Shown here piece after piece: positions 22,354-48,375 of a DNA stretch of 64,000 nt (positions are counted from its first letter, which is position 1; every line of letters begins with the position of its first letter). This stretch comes from Trypanosoma brucei (Eukaryota). The notes beneath the pieces are model-generated. The model saw nothing but the letters and a program-made list of their open reading frames with translations, ran no database searches and was not told where the DNA came from. The translations under genes were made by a program, and so were the position numbers. The DNA lies in the NCBI GenBank assembly GCA_000002445.1, contig CM000208.1, positions 2,272,001-2,336,000 of the forward strand, read 5' to 3'.

Positions 22354-22442
22354 GTGAAGTTTGTGTACCAAGCAACACAATTGACCTCCCTTCGATTCTC
22401 ACACCCACGTGGCCGCTGAACATACAATTAAGGACGTGTAAA

Positions 22443-22473
<31 letters not shown>

Positions 22474-25400
22474 TTTGTATATATGTTCTTAATTATGATG
22501 ATTTATTGATGTAACATCCGCGATAATTTTTTTTTGTTCGACTCTGTTTATTTCCGATTTTTTTTTCTTTTCTGCTCCCCGTTTTTTTTTTCCTGTGTAC
22601 TCGTTGTTTTGTTTTGTTTTTTTACCTCCAGAGGTTGATGGCCGCTGGCTTTAACGTGATACCCCCCCCTCCCCCTTCAACCCGCCGCGTACGCGTGGAT
22701 ATGCACCTAAACGTACAATTGAAGATGACACAAACACGTGCGTTTGCAATTTTGTGAATGAATGCGGTGAATGTTATTGTTTTTTTTTTGTATATTTGTA
22801 AGCGTGTGTAAGTGGGTGGGAAGGAGGAAGGTGGAAAAAAGTGTTTTTGGGGTGGGAGATGGAACACCTCCTATGTTACGGGATGTGAATATATAAATAA
22901 ATAAATAAATAAATAACGTTTTTAATTTATGCGAATGGAAGAACGAAGTGTGGTTTCATTCGCATGTGCGTGGGGGGAAAAGGAAGAAAAAAAAAAGAGA
23001 AGCGGGTGGGGGTTGGGGGAAATAAAATAAAATAAAAAGGGTAGGGAAGAGGTATTGTTACTTGGTTTCTGATAAAGGCGGAGAGGAAAGGGAACAAGTC
23101 AAACACATACAAAACAAAAGAATCATATGTTTGTGAAAAGTTGAGGAAAGTGACGGTCAGGCATTGGTTGATGAGTAAAGTCGACGTGTATGACACATGC
23201 GCACTCTCTCCTCATTTCACAAAATGAAAAAATATATATATACATTCTTTAAGGGGGTTTTCCTGAACCTTTTTGCCTCCTCTAAACACGCGCGGAAGAA
23301 GGAAGATTCAAACTCGAATAACTCAAGTGTGAAGAGAAAACAATAATAATTAAAGCATCTGGAGTGTGGGGGGGGGGAAGGAGGAAAACAAAGGAGAGGT
23401 GGAAGTCGCGGCATACTTCAGCACAAATGACTCTTTGAAACTTTATTTAGCTGTCGTTTATGATTTATTTTGTTTTTCTCTTTTACCGTTCATTATACTG
23501 GCGGTCGACTGAAATTCTAACCCAATAAATGAATACGCCACGCGACGAGAGAAATAACACTGAAAGAAGAGGGGAAACAAATGTGGCAACATGAAGGAGT
23601 CGAAGGAGACAAAATGACCAGCGTTTAATCAACCGTCACGACAAACTTGGCGCATCCGGTAGGTTTTCAACCTTTCGTCCTTTGCTGCTGCTGCTGTTGT
23701 TGTTGTTGTTGAGGGGATCCAAAAGGTCGTTGCAGTTCAGTGGTGGTAACTTCGTGTTGGATGGGTTTCACTCATCTTAAAGGAAAGCGGACGAAGGAAT
23801 AATAGCAAAGGGAAAAAAAAACAAAACAAAAGGAGCTAAGCTTATCACATTATTCACTGCTGAGTGGTAGGAGGGAGGTGGGAGAGAAAGAAAAACTGAA
23901 TGAAGAAGGTAATGTTCACATATTATTATTTATTTATTATTATTATTTTTTACAGAGAACTAATCATTGATAATGTATGTGTGTTTGTTTCCACTAGTTT
24001 TCCTGTTGTTGATGTTGTTTTAAGCAAAAAAAAAAAGGAGGCGGGAAACAAGCGCCGATGCCGCTACTGCTTTGGTGGCAGTGGGGTGCGGCAGTAGTGA
24101 TGGCAGCCCATTGATAAGTTACCGTTACGTAAAACATTTATTGCGTCCCTACAGCGCGAAAGTTTCCACACAAAAATAACGTCTCTCCTTCAGAGACCCT
24201 GTTAACTATGTACTCCACTCTGAAACAAAGAGTAATCGGTTCATGTGGCAGCATTCCCTTCTGTATTTCTAACACCACTACTTCATCTCTTTCACCTCTT
24301 TTAATTTCCAACACGCATTCAAGCCATGAGCTGGTACGACCCGAAAGTCTCGTAAGCAATGACAAAAAAAAGGATGAAATGGATGTGAACATGCATATAT
24401 TATTAAACAAATAAATATATGAGAGAGGTTGGTTGCACCAGCCTTTGGCACGTATTGAGCTGAAGAAAGCCTACCGAAGGGGGAGAGGACTGCAGCGAAC
24501 TGAATGGGGTGGGTCCAAACAATGAGAAGTGGTCGCGACGAGGACCCGTCAATTTGTTTGTTTGTTTTGTTTTGTTTTGTTTTTTTTGGTGGAGGGAGGA
24601 AGCGAATACGCCCGTAAAAAAGGTGTAATCTTATGAGCCTGCATTACTTTTTAGCCCGTGCAAAGGGGGTTTGTGGCGGGTTAGTGGACGGAAATGAAAC
24701 TGTTGCAGTGGCTCCTGCGCAGCTCTCCTTTCATCACCCGCTCCATTTAGCGGGTCATAGCTGTGTTTGTCGTAGCAAAGGGGTGATGCATGTTGGGGTA
24801 AACAATACAATATTTTGGTAGCGTTATACGCTGCTTTGTGTGGGGTGGCACAAATGCAAGTGTTGGTCTCTGTTCTCTTTACTAGAATAATATATGAAGG
24901 GAGCAAGTCAGTCAGCAAATTGCTGGGAATCCGTCGCTGCATCTCTGTCAATGGTTCCCACCACCGCCGTACTCCGAGACGGGGACCGCAGCTGATTGAC
25001 ACGTAGCCTTCAAGGAGTCTGTGACGGTTTTACTTGATGGGTGGAAGCCCTTTCCACTGAGGAGACTGCTGAGAATGTGAAATGCCCATTGGTGAGAAGT
25101 AATAGCGAGGAACCCACCGAGCCTCACAGTATCTGGGAAAGAAAATAACAGAAATAATTATGGTAAATGAAAACCGGGGAAGCTACCCGCCTTCGTCCCT
25201 TCCACAAACATATTAATAGCACATCGACTCATTCGTAAGAGATATTTTAATGCTGCTGGGCCAATGTTGGTGAAGTTAGAAGTGGTTTCCTTATCTTGGT
25301 GGCAGACGGGAAGAGGAATATTAGGGACATCCCGTCCCAGTCTTTTTCCACACTATTACCTTCTAAAATTGTGTTTGAACCTCCACAAAACCAAGAAGCT

Positions 25401-46200: not shown

Positions 46201-47893
46201 TTTCTACGGTGTTGGACCGGCCTGTAAAATACAGACGCCAGTTTCTCAACCGCAGAGCTCCACTGAAAACACGAGCTCCTTTAGCGAGGCAGACCCCAAC
46301 TATTCCGCTGCGATCCATGTGAAATTGGACTGGGGCTTCCCCGGCATCCTTGCTCAACGACAGCGGCTACGAGGGACAAGCAAAGAAGCAAACTTCCAAG
46401 GAAACGAAAAAGGCAAAAGAGCATTTGCTGTCGCAGGGTGGATTGATAACGTTACCGTGGCCCCTTGCCCCAGAAGACGGTGCTAGCAAGCCCTCCCAAA
46501 TTTCGTCAAAGTGGGATACACGCAAGAGATGGGAATCCCCTGCTTCAGAAAATAGCCACGCCCTGCCGCTGCGGCAACGTAGTTGGCATTGCCAATAATA
46601 TTCTTGCTTTTACCGACCCTCTGGAAAACGCGAGGCCACAACCACTCCTTGACGGACTTATCAACTACTACTGATTTTTTTTTTCGTCTCCTTCGCCTCT
46701 TCGTCATCCTGCAGCCACTTGTGACAGCAGGATTTCGTTTCACCTGACAGCTCCACAGTTTCGCATATAGTGATATTTGGCCCTCAAATCAGAAGAACTG
46801 ACACCTCGGCGTTGTCTAATCGGCCAAAAATCTCGCTTTCCACAACTCTTTCTGGTTCCCCTTTTTTTCAGTAGGCAGAGGAAAACAACCATCTCCAAAC
46901 TGAAAACTGTGTGCAGCCGCGCCCCAGCGGAAGCAACATGCTTGCGCAGCAAGGTTATGTCGGACGAGTGACCCACCTCCCTTTCGATAGGCCCTATTTG
47001 GTGCCATTCACCTTTGGCTGGGGTTCTCACCACTCGACACACCCTGTCCTTCGGTCCGAAATTTTCCTTTTCAGGAATTTGTGGCTTCCACCCTCCCTCC
47101 CGTACATCCTTTTGCCACGAGTGGGGCTTGGTATCCTCCTCGTTGTTTTTTCAGTGTTTTGGATGGCGGCTGTGTCGCAGCACCGCCCTTTTCCAGTTGC
47201 ACGGCACTCCGCGGTGCTCGATCCCAGCATCTTTTCACGCGTAACCGTTGCACCTTCATTTTCCTGGAGGGGGTGCGCCCCCCAAGGAACGATCTGGCCT
47301 CCCGATGGTGCGTTATTCTGGCATCAAAGGTCAATGGCGAAGTCGGTGTCCGAACTTCCGCTGCTTACGAATTGCCTTACGAACGGAGAATGGTTGTCAC
47401 TCTTTCGCTTTCACGGTTGTCTGCTCCCTCCCGCTCTGCGCGTTGGTCGATTTATCCGGCTACCCTTCCTAAAGTGAAACGAGGGGGTTTTACAGGTAAG
47501 GAGCTCCCGCATTGGCCCTGTCGCTTGGTACGTCTCCCCAGTTCGTCGAGGGTTTCGTGTTCCACCGGCTGATCAGGTAACTGCCGACGCTAACTTCTAC
47601 TGATCATAGGTTTCTTCTCCTCTTCGTCTTGGCGGTGCGCTCGCCTCAACCGCACCGGTGACCCGGTGAGCCTCCTACGCATTTCCTTGCAGTGCGGGCC
47701 TCCTGGCTCCCCGCGGTCGCCATTTTTCTTACTTGTGTGTACGGTGGTTGGCTGCCCCATTGCTGCTCTTTGTGTGTTTTTTTCTTTTTCTTTTTTCTCG
47801 GCGGGAGGGGATGTAGTTTCTCTCTTTTCTTTTGCTGAGGACAGGTTGGGGCGGCATGAGAAGTTCCTGAGGTGTGTCTGTGTGTGTGTGTGT

Positions 47894-47913
47894 TGGGGGG
47901 GGGGGGGGGGGGG
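47894..47913. repeat. G20 homopolymer immediately after a (TG)n run
   Basis: gtgtgtgtgtgtgtt followed by 20 G is directly visible. Its complement is C20 on the minus strand. Confidence 0.9.
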
Positions 47914-48375
47914 TACGGCCTAGCGGCTGTTTCTGCTACCGAGGTGTGTGACGAAGGCGCCACCCTCCTAGCTTGCCGTGTTGCAGTTTTTTTTTTTTAC
48001 AGCTAGTTGTGGCGGTTCGCCCTCGAGTACCGAGAGACGCAGGTGCATCCCGTGAATATTCGGGTCGTTTAAACTGTTAGCGATCGGTGTCGGGATACGT
48101 GTGCTCCAGTCGGGTTTCGCTCTTTGCGCTTTCGCCCTTTCAGGGCAGCGGGTGCTTTGAGCTCCTGGTAAATGCCACTTTGTCTTTGCTAACATTTTTT
48201 TCGGGTTATCCACTTTATGACGCTTAAGGTTAGTCGTGCTACAGATGATGCCCGTATATGTGTACAATCGCCAATGTTCGCGTCCATGTAGGCGTTGGTG
48301 TTCTTATCTTCCTTACCGTTTATTTACAAGGAGGAGAAAGCAAAGTCTTTTTTTTAAAGCTGACAGCCCACTGGC

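What the first reader, a model, noticed from the sequence alone, without database searches (positions are those of the whole stretch)
22354..48375. Hypothesis: a 26-kb accessory island of secretory-pathway genes (GT array plus secreted/anchored Cys-rich proteins) embedded among housekeeping genes
Between NDH2 and the MDR oxidoreductase, the only supportable ORFs are the glycosyltransferase-like array and ORFs with signal peptides (27097, 39626, possibly 38433 and 26551). Flanking genes on both sides are conserved housekeeping genes. The island may therefore be a lineage-specific insertion dedicated to a surface or Golgi glycosylation function. This is an inference from gene content and topology predictions only.
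Basis: inference. Interest (0 to 1): 0.6.

Follow-up and report, generated by a model that had tools for sequence, protein, structure and literature searches.

The report
Known ESAG3-like glycosyltransferase array island
This 26-kb stretch of Trypanosoma brucei chromosome 10 holds an already published tandem array of ESAG3-like glycosyltransferase genes, two small surface-type genes and much non-coding DNA, sitting where related parasites carry a tyrosine phosphatase gene.

Summary
The window is T. brucei TREU927 chromosome 10. Between NDH2 (20878-22353) and the MDR oxidoreductase (48376-49380) the only credible genes are an ISG-like gene, four tandem ESAG3-like (GRESAG3) genes with decayed remnants on both sides, and a 200-aa Cys-rich T. 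brucei-specific gene.

The "glycosyltransferase-like" call is right:
- A family profile hits the human LH3/PLOD3 GT domain (E 2.4e-8).
- An AlphaFold model (pLDDT 90) matches LH3 (Foldseek E 1e-10).
- The DxxD/His metal site is intact in all four copies.

None of this is new. The array was published as "Tb105a" in 2007. A 2026 preprint shows that expression-site ESAG3 is an ER-resident, Mn-dependent VSG O-glucosyltransferase with this fold.

The "simple insertion" reading fails. In T. cruzi, T. melophagium and L. major, NDH2 is followed by the PTP1 tyrosine phosphatase, which the literature lists as missing from T. brucei. The island therefore replaced an ancestral segment at a synteny breakpoint. 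T. vivax breaks synteny at the same point.

The last 8 kb (40.2-48.4 kb) has no recognisable coding content in any frame.

Small new details: copies 1 and 2 lack the tryptophan that ESAG3 needs for activity, and their differences fall in short mosaic patches.

The parts
20878..22353 (+). NDH2 (type II NADH dehydrogenase), the left conserved flank. Collinearity with other trypanosomatids ends at its 3' end.
   Evidence: Pfam Pyr_redox_2 and NDH2_C. Exact match to EAN78339. Orthologues are collinear with six upstream genes in T. cruzi, L. major and T. vivax.
22354..27096 (.). AT-rich (GC 40-45%), ORF-poor spacer with a few simple repeats. It presumably includes the NDH2 3' UTR.
   Evidence: Composition. 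No meaningful Pfam hit for the longest stop-free segments (only a sub-threshold DUF2713 match, E 0.069). Microsatellites only. No similarity to the T. cruzi, L. major or T. vivax loci.
27097..27849 (+). ISG-like gene (Tb10.6k15.0940, 250 aa). It has a hydrophobic N-terminus and 8 Cys, but no transmembrane or cytoplasmic tail, so it is a short or truncated member of the invariant surface glycoprotein family.
   Evidence: Pfam ISG65-75, E 1.1e-10, 41.7 bits against a 25.1 cut-off, profile positions 150-268 of 281. Exact match to EAN78340. Hydropathy. No TM-coding continuation downstream. Codon-usage score 0.18, coding-like.
30426..31440 (+). Decayed 5' ESAG3-like copy. There is weak similarity to residues ~49-174 at 30426-30796, and an intact C-terminal 109 codons at 31111-31440 belonging to the array repeat.
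   Evidence: tblastn. Repeat families D1 and D6. The 109-aa ORF is identical to the sequence annotated 'ESAG3, fragment' in T. b. gambiense.
31559..32731 (+). GRESAG3 copy 1 (EAN78342, 390 aa). The DxxD/Gly-loop/DQ/His site is intact, but Gly stands at the position of the essential ESAG3 Trp242.
32850..34022 (+). GRESAG3 copy 2 (EAN78343, 390 aa). It is 97% identical to copy 1, with Arg at the Trp242-equivalent position and Asn at the His84-equivalent position.
   Evidence: The AlphaFold model of this copy has pLDDT 90 and its best PDB matches are LH3 GT domains.
34141..35319 (+). GRESAG3 copy 3 (EAN78344, 392 aa, 'ESAG3-like'). It is 67% identical to copies 1 and 2 and keeps the Trp-Trp pair.
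   Evidence: Ectopic gene conversion of this copy is reported in PMC1855330.
35390..36625 (+). GRESAG3 copy 4 (EAN78345, 411 aa). It is divergent (about 36% identity to copies 1-3), has its own flanks and keeps all catalytic residues and the Trp-Trp pair.
   Evidence: PMC1855330 describes Tb105a.4 as segregated from the array and retaining orthology with copies in other species.
37243..37989 (+). Decayed 3' ESAG3-like remnant (pseudogene).
   Evidence: tblastn with P0007: E 1.5e-6 over residues 106-357, and E 1.3e-7 for 37752-37856. No open frame.
39626..40228 (+). 200-aa Cys-rich gene specific to T. brucei and its subspecies (Tb10.6k15.0880). It has a hydrophobic N-terminus, 10 Cys, 2 NxS/T sites and a 12-residue C-terminal hydrophobic stretch followed by a polar tail, which is not a textbook GPI signal.
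   Evidence: No Pfam or PDB relative. Codon score 0.14, coding-like. Unrelated to the ISG-like protein.
40229..48375 (.). 8.1 kb with no recognisable coding content. It is GC-richer (49-56%) and the + strand is pyrimidine-skewed. It carries only ORFs annotated as hypothetical or 'unlikely' (42120-42491, 45124-45498, 46938-47477). The last of these is probably Tb927.10.9550.
   Evidence: Composition. No Pfam hit in any of six frames. Annotation names. Codon scores of -0.07 to 0.03. No similarity to other species' loci. 98.8% identical in T. b. equiperdum.
48376..49380 (+). MDR-family oxidoreductase (TbOR, Tb927.10.9560), the right conserved flank.
   Evidence: Pfam ADH_N and ADH_zinc_N. EAN78351. 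66% identical to the T. cruzi orthologue that lies 9 kb downstream of NDH2. Gene ID from PMC11537032.

Best explanation
The region is a chromosome-internal island on chromosome 10 that is confined to T. brucei and its subspecies and sits at an evolutionary synteny breakpoint.

The ancestral segment downstream of NDH2 carried the PTP1B-like phosphatase PTP1 and at least one further conserved ORF. In T. brucei that segment has been lost. In its place are members of surface and secretory multigene families:
- a truncated ISG-like gene;
- a tandem array of four intact ESAG3-related (GRESAG3, Fam53) genes, flanked by two decayed copies;
- a small Cys-rich gene.

About 17 kb more has no recognisable coding content.

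The array proteins are GT-A glycosyltransferases of the LH3/PLOD type. By homology with ESAG3 they most likely use a DxxD...His-bound Mn2+ and a UDP-sugar to O-glycosylate secretory-pathway proteins. A basic, hydrophobic N-terminal segment would act as a signal anchor or signal peptide.

The array evolves by unequal crossing-over, seen as copy-number differences between strains, and by short-tract gene conversion, seen as mosaic patches. The patches alter residues that line the ESAG3 active-site cavity, so the copies probably differ in activity or substrate.

Shown here: gene identity, fold, conserved catalytic residues, synteny, and absence of other genes. Inferred: enzymatic activity, donor and acceptor, localisation, and the order of loss and gain.
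For: Identity:
- A 100% match to T. brucei TREU927 'ESAG protein, putative' on a 4.05-Mb contig.
- Exact matches to EAN78339-78351.

Family and fold:
- 80 homologues in a profile search. These include the expression-site ESAG3 cluster P0151 and ESAG-like proteins of T. vivax, T. grayi, T. conorhini and T. cruzi marinkellei.
- The profile hits the LH3 GT domain in the PDB at E 2.4e-8, with the DxxD, LNxGG and H motifs aligned.
- Weak GT_PLOD Pfam hits in distant members.
- AF2 model with pLDDT 90. The top 10 Foldseek PDB hits are all LH3 (E 1e-10, prob 1.0), followed by mimivirus R699 and the UGGT catalytic domain.
- D110, D113, G215, Q245 and H297 of ESAG3 are invariant in all four copies.
- The preprint 10.64898/2026.01.27.701950 shows these residues define an active Mn-dependent UDP-Glc:VSG O-glucosyltransferase.

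Synteny:
- Six genes upstream of NDH2 (TylF, KH, AIRS, BCS1, PRPP synthase and a cut UBX gene) plus NDH2 itself are collinear in the relatives sampled.
- Downstream there is a PTP gene in T. cruzi, T. melophagium and L. major.
- No trace of that PTP is found in the window.
- LmjF36.5370 is LmPTP1, and its T. brucei orthologue is reported missing (PMC2994645). NDH2 is LmjF.36.5380 (PMC9769760).
- T. vivax has a strand switch directly after NDH2 and no PTP within 10 kb.

Array dynamics:
- Fewer copies in T. b. equiperdum and T. equiperdum.
- Tb927.10.9460 and 9470 are absent in T. evansi STIB805 (PMC4288722).
- 26 nt differences between copies 1 and 2 fall in 5 patches.
- Ectopic gene conversion is reported (PMC1855330).
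Against: - No biochemical or localisation data exist for these paralogues. They are only 28-31% identical to the characterised ESAG3.
- Copies 1 and 2 have Gly or Arg where ESAG3 has Trp242, and W242A abolishes ESAG3 activity. Two of the four copies may therefore be inactive or different.
- The window proteins do not themselves reach any Pfam GT model.
- T. congolense, the closest outgroup, could not be examined. The timing of loss and gain is therefore open, and Jackson 2007 lists homologues of the array in T. congolense and T. vivax.
- The 8-kb ORF-free region remains unexplained.
Confidence: 0.8

Rival explanations
1. Simple lineage-specific insertion. A 26-kb cassette of secretory-pathway genes was inserted between two genes that are adjacent in relatives.
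For: The island content is absent from the syntenic position in every other species sampled, and it shares no DNA similarity with their intervening sequence. Both flanks are conserved.
Against: NDH2 and MDR are about 9 kb apart in T. cruzi, with PTP1 and a conserved 350-aa ORF between them. L. major and T. melophagium also have PTP next to NDH2. No target-site duplication, inverted repeats, reverse transcriptase or transposase lie at or inside the boundaries.
Confidence: 0.07
2. Decaying junk region. The island is a graveyard of surface-family pseudogenes, and the 'intact' GRESAG3, ISG-like and Cys-rich ORFs are non-functional relics with no role in glycosylation.
For: - Decayed ESAG3-like remnants lie on both sides of the array.
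- The ISG-like gene lacks a TM and tail.
- Copies 1 and 2 lack the essential Trp.
- Copies are dispensable in T. evansi (PMC4288722).
- The ESAG3 copies have weak codon-usage scores of 0.05-0.11.
- Two thirds of the island has no recognisable coding content.
Against: - Four full-length ORFs of 390-411 aa with every catalytic residue intact are unlikely to persist by chance.
- The copy 4 protein is 100% identical in T. equiperdum and 99.5% identical in T. b. equiperdum, and it is reported to retain orthology across species (PMC1855330).
- Tb927.10.9480 transcripts are detected and regulated (PMC3957582).
- The ISG-like and 200-aa ORFs have coding-like codon usage and are conserved in T. b. gambiense, T. 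b. equiperdum and T. equiperdum.
Confidence: 0.1
3. Co-functional enzyme-substrate cluster. The GRESAG3 enzymes glycosylate the neighbouring ISG-like and Cys-rich secreted proteins, and the genes are kept together for that reason.
For: All credible genes in the island encode proteins with secretory-type N-termini. ESAG3 acts on Ser/Thr in disulphide-bounded loops of a surface protein, and both neighbours are Cys-rich.
Against: Trypanosome genes are transcribed polycistronically, and functional clustering is not a general feature (established knowledge). Several kilobases of ORF-free DNA separate the genes. There is no co-variation or co-occurrence data. Species-specific surface families are known to pile up at synteny breaks regardless of function (El-Sayed et al. 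2005, from memory).
Confidence: 0.03

Closest known systems
ESAG3 of T. brucei bloodstream expression sites (VSG O-glucosyltransferase; Zhong et al., bioRxiv 10.64898/2026.01.27.701950)
   Same: Same protein family (Fam53). The alignment runs with a constant +14 offset between the catalytic motifs. DxxD (D110/D113), the Gly-rich loop (G215-216), the acidic-Gln pair and the C-terminal His (H297) are conserved. The fold is the same GT-A fold closest to LH3.
   Different: - Only 28-31% identity.
- Located in the chromosome core rather than the telomeric expression site, so these are GRESAG3 paralogues.
- Asp instead of Glu at position 244.
- A longer basic and hydrophobic N-terminus that looks like a signal anchor, rather than the short cleaved signal peptide of ESAG3.
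- A different C-terminus (…LRK against …KAKKL).
- Copies 1 and 2 lack Trp242.
- Activity, donor, acceptor, oligomeric state and localisation are all untested.
Array 'Tb105a' (Tb10.6k15.0910) in Jackson 2007, BMC Evol Biol 7:54 (PMC1855330)
   Same: This is the same locus. That paper describes three concerted copies plus a divergent fourth copy with unrelated UTRs. It also reports ectopic gene conversion of copy 3 with Tb10.70.2860.
   Different: That paper treats the array only as an example of tandem-array evolution. It says nothing about enzymatic function, the PTP1 replacement or the neighbouring genes.
Human LH3/PLOD3 N-terminal glucosyltransferase domain (PDB 6FXR, 6WFV; Pfam GT_PLOD PF25342)
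   Same: A GT-A Rossmann-like fold with a DxxD...His Mn2+ site and an LNxGG loop. Profile E 2.4e-8 and Foldseek E 1e-10.
   Different: About 16-17% identity. The window proteins do not reach the Pfam model themselves. LH3 is a multidomain collagen-modifying enzyme that acts on galactosyl-hydroxylysine. The trypanosome proteins are single-domain with an extra C-terminal helical/beta region.
ISG65/ISG75 invariant surface glycoproteins of T. brucei
   Same: ORF 27097-27849 matches the Pfam ISG65-75 domain above threshold and has an N-terminal hydrophobic signal.
   Different: It is 250 aa, which I recall (from memory) to be well short of ISG65/75. Only the C-terminal half of the domain model is matched. 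There is no transmembrane helix or cytoplasmic tail, and no sequence match to solved structures.

Membership tests
ESAG3/GRESAG3 (Fam53) glycosyltransferases | Significant sequence homology to ESAG3 family members | tested here: met
   E 1e-84 to 1e-268 to annotated ESAG3-like proteins. The family profile retrieves the expression-site ESAG3 cluster P0151 at E 7e-81. 28-31% identity to the BES ESAG3 P0227.
ESAG3/GRESAG3 (Fam53) glycosyltransferases | Metal-binding DxxD motif plus C-terminal His (ESAG3 D110/D113/H297) | tested here: met
   Invariant in all four window copies, at D124/D127/H311 in window numbering.
ESAG3/GRESAG3 (Fam53) glycosyltransferases | Gly-rich loop (G215-G216) and acidic-Gln pair (E244/Q245) | tested here: met
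   LN[G/A]GG and CDQ are present in all copies. The acidic residue is Asp, as in LH3 (D191/Q192), not Glu (preprint text).
ESAG3/GRESAG3 (Fam53) glycosyltransferases | Gating Trp242, required for ESAG3 activity (W242A is inactive) | tested here: inconclusive
   Copies 3 and 4 have Trp. Copy 1 has Gly and copy 2 has Arg. Other T. brucei GRESAG3 paralogues also vary here (W/G/L).
ESAG3/GRESAG3 (Fam53) glycosyltransferases | GT-A fold closest to LH3 | tested here: met
   AF2 pLDDT 90 and pTM 0.83. Foldseek finds LH3 at E 1.3e-10, and TM 0.67 normalised to the isolated GT domain 6wfv.
ESAG3/GRESAG3 (Fam53) glycosyltransferases | Mn2+-dependent UDP-glucose:protein O-glucosyltransferase activity and ER residence | not testable with these tools
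   Shown only for expression-site ESAG3. The preprint states that GRESAG3 enzymes have not been tested.
ESAG3 sensu stricto (expression-site gene) | Location in a telomeric VSG expression site or subtelomere, and membership of the ESAG3 s.s. clade | tested here: not met
   The genes lie in the chromosome core among conserved syntenic genes and are only about 30% identical to BES ESAG3. They are therefore GRESAG3/ESAG3-like, consistent with PMC6152948.
Pfam GT_PLOD (PF25342) | Protein scores above the family's gathering threshold | tested here: not met
   No Pfam hit for any window copy at E<=0.01. Only one distant homologue, P0172, reaches 28.4 bits against a cut-off of 27. The relationship is at superfamily level.
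ISG65/75 invariant surface glycoproteins | ISG65-75 domain | tested here: met
   41.7 bits against a cut-off of 25.1, E 1.1e-10, but only profile positions 150-268 of 281 are matched.
ISG65/75 invariant surface glycoproteins | Type I topology: signal peptide, ectodomain, single TM helix and a short cytoplasmic tail | tested here: not met
   Only the N-terminal hydrophobic segment is present. There is no TM in the ORF or in any downstream frame.
Inserted genomic island / mobile cassette | Flanking genes adjacent in relatives, and boundary repeats or mobility genes present | tested here: not met
   PTP1 and another ORF lie between the flanks in relatives. There are no direct or inverted repeats outside the array. 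No RT, endonuclease or transposase domain was found in the six-frame scan of 40229-48375 or in the longest stop-free segments of the rest of the island.
Inserted genomic island / mobile cassette | Content restricted to one lineage at this position | tested here: met
   Present at 97-99.8% identity in T. b. equiperdum and T. equiperdum and annotated in T. b. gambiense. Absent from the T. cruzi, T. melophagium, L. major and T. vivax loci. T. congolense was not available.

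The most novel reading that the evidence does not exclude
The tandem GRESAG3 copies are a diversifying set of secretory-pathway O-glycosyltransferases. Short gene-conversion patches have rewritten the residues lining the active-site and acceptor cavity (the equivalents of ESAG3 H84 and the essential W242), which would give the paralogues different donor or acceptor specificities. On this reading they could be the unidentified enzymes that extend the ESAG3-primed O-glucose on VSGs, or that glycosylate other surface proteins such as ISGs. 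The array arose on the site where T. brucei lost PTP1.
Probability: 0.15. Interest if true: 0.6.

Novelty: already known. Interest (0 to 1): 0.22.

Why it matters
It also shows that the locus is an annotated, published ESAG3-like array whose family function was established experimentally in 2026.

Two things are added here:
1. The position where T. brucei lost PTP1 is pinned down. PTP1 is the PTP1B-like phosphatase whose role in vivo has been investigated in Leishmania. The position is a synteny breakpoint, also broken in T. vivax, that was refilled with surface-family genes.
2. Two of the four array copies carry substitutions at a residue essential for ESAG3 activity, and the differences between copies lie in gene-conversion-like patches at the active-site cavity.

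If the GRESAG3 paralogues turn out to extend or diversify O-glycans on VSG, this array would be a natural set of variants to test. That remains speculation.

Tried and rejected
1. Degenerate retroelement (ingi/DIRE/RIME), RHS or VSG pseudogene in the compositionally odd 40.2-48.4 kb stretch. Rejected: no Pfam hit for the ten longest stop-free segments or for complete X-masked translations of all six frames, and no internal or window-wide DNA repeats.

2. Decayed remnant of the ancestral PTP1 or of the T. cruzi or L. major intervening ORFs inside the island. Rejected: tblastn finds nothing at E<=0.01, and only scattered noise at E<=50 with word size 2. Sensitive blastn finds only the flanking genes.

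3. First structure prediction with 8 close paralogues gave pLDDT 39 and was unusable. It was solved by using a 40-sequence alignment that included distant homologues.

4. The last word-indexed protein search, run with the broad alignment, added almost nothing (8 hits).

5. T. congolense synteny could not be checked. Its NDH2 protein is not on any contig in the collection. The T. grayi contig ends just after NDH2.

6. The 200-aa Cys-rich protein has no Pfam hit, no PDB sequence relative and no similarity to the ISG-like protein.

7. The ISG-like protein has no phmmer hit to solved structures.

8. The codon-usage log-odds trained on the window's housekeeping genes separates classes only weakly. 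It cannot decide the 64-aa and 71-aa ORFs.

9. The GT67 family of T. brucei Golgi glycosyltransferases was considered from memory because of the type II-like topology. Nothing supports it. The fold and profile matches are to LH3/PLOD, R699 and UGGT.

10. Rfam and tRNA scans of the whole window were empty.

Full report
**Source of the window and check of the observation.** The array protein is 100% identical to a T. brucei brucei TREU927 "ESAG protein, putative" on a 4.05-Mb contig. Exact look-ups place the window ORFs at GenBank EAN78339-EAN78351. All long ORFs lie on the + strand.

**Credible genes inside the interval.**
- 27097-27849 is a 250-aa protein with a hydrophobic N-terminus. It hits Pfam ISG65-75 above threshold (E 1.1e-10).
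- Four tandem genes lie at 31559-36625 (period 1291 nt).
- 39626-40228 is a 200-aa protein with a hydrophobic N-terminus and 10 Cys, annotated "T. brucei spp.-specific".

**Decayed array copies.** tblastn also reveals decayed array copies on both sides, at 30426-30796 plus 31102-31440 and at 37243-37989.

**Nothing else is supportable.**
- The longest stop-free segments give no meaningful Pfam hit; the only match is DUF2713 at E 0.069, far below its cut-off.
- Full six-frame translations of 40229-48375 give none.
- There are no repeats outside the array and no RNA genes.
- The annotated ORFs in 40-48 kb are labelled hypothetical or "unlikely" and have non-coding-like codon usage.

**What the array is.** The four genes are annotated ESAG3-like. 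A profile of the paralogues finds 80 homologues among 1.84 billion representatives. These include the expression-site ESAG3 cluster and "ESAG-like" proteins of T. vivax, T. grayi, T. conorhini and T. cruzi marinkellei.

**Evidence for a glycosyltransferase fold.**
- None of the window proteins hits Pfam, but distant family members weakly hit GT_PLOD.
- A 40-sequence family profile hits the glucosyltransferase domain of human LH3/PLOD3 in the PDB at E 2.4e-8. The alignment puts the family's FDGxDT on LH3's metal-binding VDSYDV, its YLNxGG on LH3's FLNSGG, and its ILHF on LH3's VVHG.
- A first AlphaFold run with 8 paralogues failed (pLDDT 39). With the 40-sequence alignment the model reached pLDDT 90 and pTM 0.83.
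- The ten best Foldseek matches in the PDB are all LH3 (E 1.3e-10, probability 1.0; TM 0.67 against the isolated GT domain). Mimivirus R699 and the UGGT catalytic domain follow.

**This is already known.** A 2026 preprint (bioRxiv 10.64898/2026.01.27.701950) reports the following for expression-site ESAG3:
- It has a GT-A fold closest to LH3, with catalytic residues D110/D113, G215-216, E244/Q245 and H297.
- It is an ER-resident octadecamer.
- About 50 intact GRESAG3 genes are scattered through the genome and are untested. The authors speculate that they might extend the primed glucose.

Aligned with a BES ESAG3 (P0227), the window copies are 28-31% identical. D110, D113, G215, Q245 and H297 are invariant, and E244 is Asp, as in LH3.

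The array itself was published as "Tb105a" (Tb10.6k15.0910) by Jackson 2007 (PMC1855330):
- Copies 1-3 evolve in concert.
- Copy 4 is divergent with unrelated UTRs.
- Copy 3 shows ectopic gene conversion.
- Homologues are listed for T. b. gambiense, T. congolense and T. vivax.

Tb927.10.9460 and 9470 are reported absent from T. evansi STIB805 (PMC4288722). Here the array is also shorter in the T. b. equiperdum and T. equiperdum assemblies. PMC6152948 places core-chromosome "GRESAG3" as the ancestral clade of Fam53. The window genes belong there and are not ESAG3 sensu stricto.

**Small additions on the array.** Copies 1 and 2 differ at 26 nt in the 1291-nt unit. The differences are confined to five patches, for example 11 differences in 33 nt and 7 in 16 nt. 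They change 10 amino acids. That pattern fits short-tract gene conversion rather than point mutation.

The patches hit the equivalents of ESAG3 H84 and W242, which line the active-site and dimer cavity. W242A abolishes ESAG3 activity. Copy 1 has Gly and copy 2 has Arg at that position, while copies 3 and 4 keep Trp. Other T. brucei paralogues also vary there. Copies 1 and 2 may therefore be inactive or have altered substrate access. This is inference only.

Unlike ESAG3, which has a short cleaved signal peptide, the window proteins begin with a basic stretch followed by about 20 hydrophobic residues that the model predicts as a long helix. That is compatible with a type II signal anchor. The spacers inside the array are only 118 nt.

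**Synteny.** NDH2 orthologues were retrieved and their loci fetched. In T. cruzi, L. major, T. vivax, T. melophagium and T. grayi, the genes upstream of NDH2 (UBX, TylF methyltransferase, KH, AIRS, BCS1, PRPP synthetase) are in the same order and strand as in the window. Collinearity stops at the 3' end of NDH2. Downstream the species differ:
- T. cruzi, T. melophagium and L. major carry a protein tyrosine phosphatase gene. The T. cruzi and L. major proteins share 56% identity over the catalytic domain.
- In T. cruzi the MDR gene follows about 9 kb after NDH2.
- A 350-aa ORF between the two is conserved in T. melophagium.
- T. vivax switches strand directly after NDH2 and has no PTP within 10 kb.
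- The window contains no trace of the PTP or of the other intervening ORFs.
- The relatives' loci contain no ESAG3-like, ISG-like or 200-aa homologue.

L. major NDH2 is LmjF.36.5380 (PMC9769760). The neighbouring gene ID, LmjF36.5370, is LmPTP1, and a review notes that its T. brucei orthologue is "missing" (PMC2994645). The identification of the L006 PTP as LmPTP1 rests on gene-ID adjacency and is an inference.

The island is therefore not an insertion between adjacent genes. It occupies the place of an ancestral PTP1-containing segment, at a breakpoint that is also rearranged in T. vivax. This matches the general rule that species-specific surface families accumulate at synteny breaks in trypanosomatid genomes (El-Sayed et al. 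2005, from memory).

**The remaining DNA.** The stretch 22354-27096 is AT-rich and ORF-poor. The stretch 40229-48375 is GC-richer with a pyrimidine-skewed + strand. It is 98.8% identical in T. b. equiperdum and has no recognisable coding content.

The MDR gene is Tb927.10.9560, and EAN78350 directly precedes EAN78351. From that ordering, ORF 46938-47477 is probably Tb927.10.9550. That ID is reported as follows:
- expressed at 0.6 rpkm in bloodstream forms and up 8.4-fold after CTR9 RNAi, in a table enriched for transcription-unit ends;
- up after bromodomain inhibition and during differentiation;
- listed in an RBP6 screen.

The ORF looks like translated pyrimidine-rich non-coding sequence. 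The regulated RNA may be non-coding, and the region could be a transcription boundary. Neither point could be tested here.

**Verdict.** It is wrong on the mechanism of origin and unproven on any concerted function. The locus and its gene family are already known, so interest is low.

Noticed in passing
window 22354 (junction after NDH2); loci L003/L004 13702-15721, L006 14308-15789, L008 13841-15820: The PTP1B-like phosphatase PTP1 (LmPTP1/TcPTP1), reported in the literature as missing from T. brucei, lies immediately downstream of NDH2 in T. cruzi, T. melophagium and L. major. The island marks the physical site of that gene loss.
   Followed up: yes
L005 11416-21416 (T. vivax): In T. vivax, synteny breaks right after NDH2. 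A 126-aa ORF is followed by four minus-strand genes (496, 872 and 304 aa, then a WD40 protein), which makes a convergent strand switch. There is no PTP, ESAG3-like or MDR gene within 10 kb.
   Followed up: partly
window 31820-31852, 32096-32098, 32210-32224, 32263, 32311-32326: All 26 nucleotide differences between array copies 1 and 2 fall in five short patches. The patches change residues equivalent to the ESAG3 cavity residues H84 and W242. The pattern looks like short-tract gene conversion from divergent paralogues.
   Followed up: partly
window 46938-47477 (probably Tb927.10.9550): A 179-aa 'T. brucei spp.-specific' ORF with non-coding-like composition. Its presumed gene ID is repeatedly reported as a regulated transcript (CTR9 RNAi, I-BET151, differentiation, RBP6 screen). 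It may be a non-coding RNA or may mark a transcription boundary. The ID mapping is inferred from gene order.
   Followed up: partly
L003 vs L004, about 20268 onward: Two T. cruzi assemblies are collinear (97% identity) for 8.7 kb downstream of NDH2 and then diverge. One continues into the MDR gene and the other directly into the LRR/PFR-component gene. The MDR gene is therefore variably present, or variably assembled, in T. cruzi.
   Followed up: partly
window 47500-48000: An extremely T-rich stretch (AT skew -0.53) just upstream of the MDR gene. The six-frame translations there suggest (TG)n-like and G-run tracts. It is probably the polypyrimidine and splice-acceptor region.
   Followed up: no
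window 32732-32849 and the equivalent spacers: The intergenic spacers inside the array are only 118 nt. They must hold both the polyadenylation region and the polypyrimidine tract with AG splice acceptor, which is unusually compact for T. brucei.
   Followed up: no
window 1-3400 and 59000-64000: Both ends of the window are low-GC (35-42%) with few long ORFs, and resemble the AT-rich part of the island. I did not examine them.
   Followed up: no
window 54167-54640 (- strand): The only minus-strand ATG ORF over 150 aa downstream of the island lies between the LRR gene and the next + strand genes. The CTR9 paper places Tb927.10.9550 '6 kb' from a transcription stop area, which would fall about here. 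I did not examine this.
   Followed up: no
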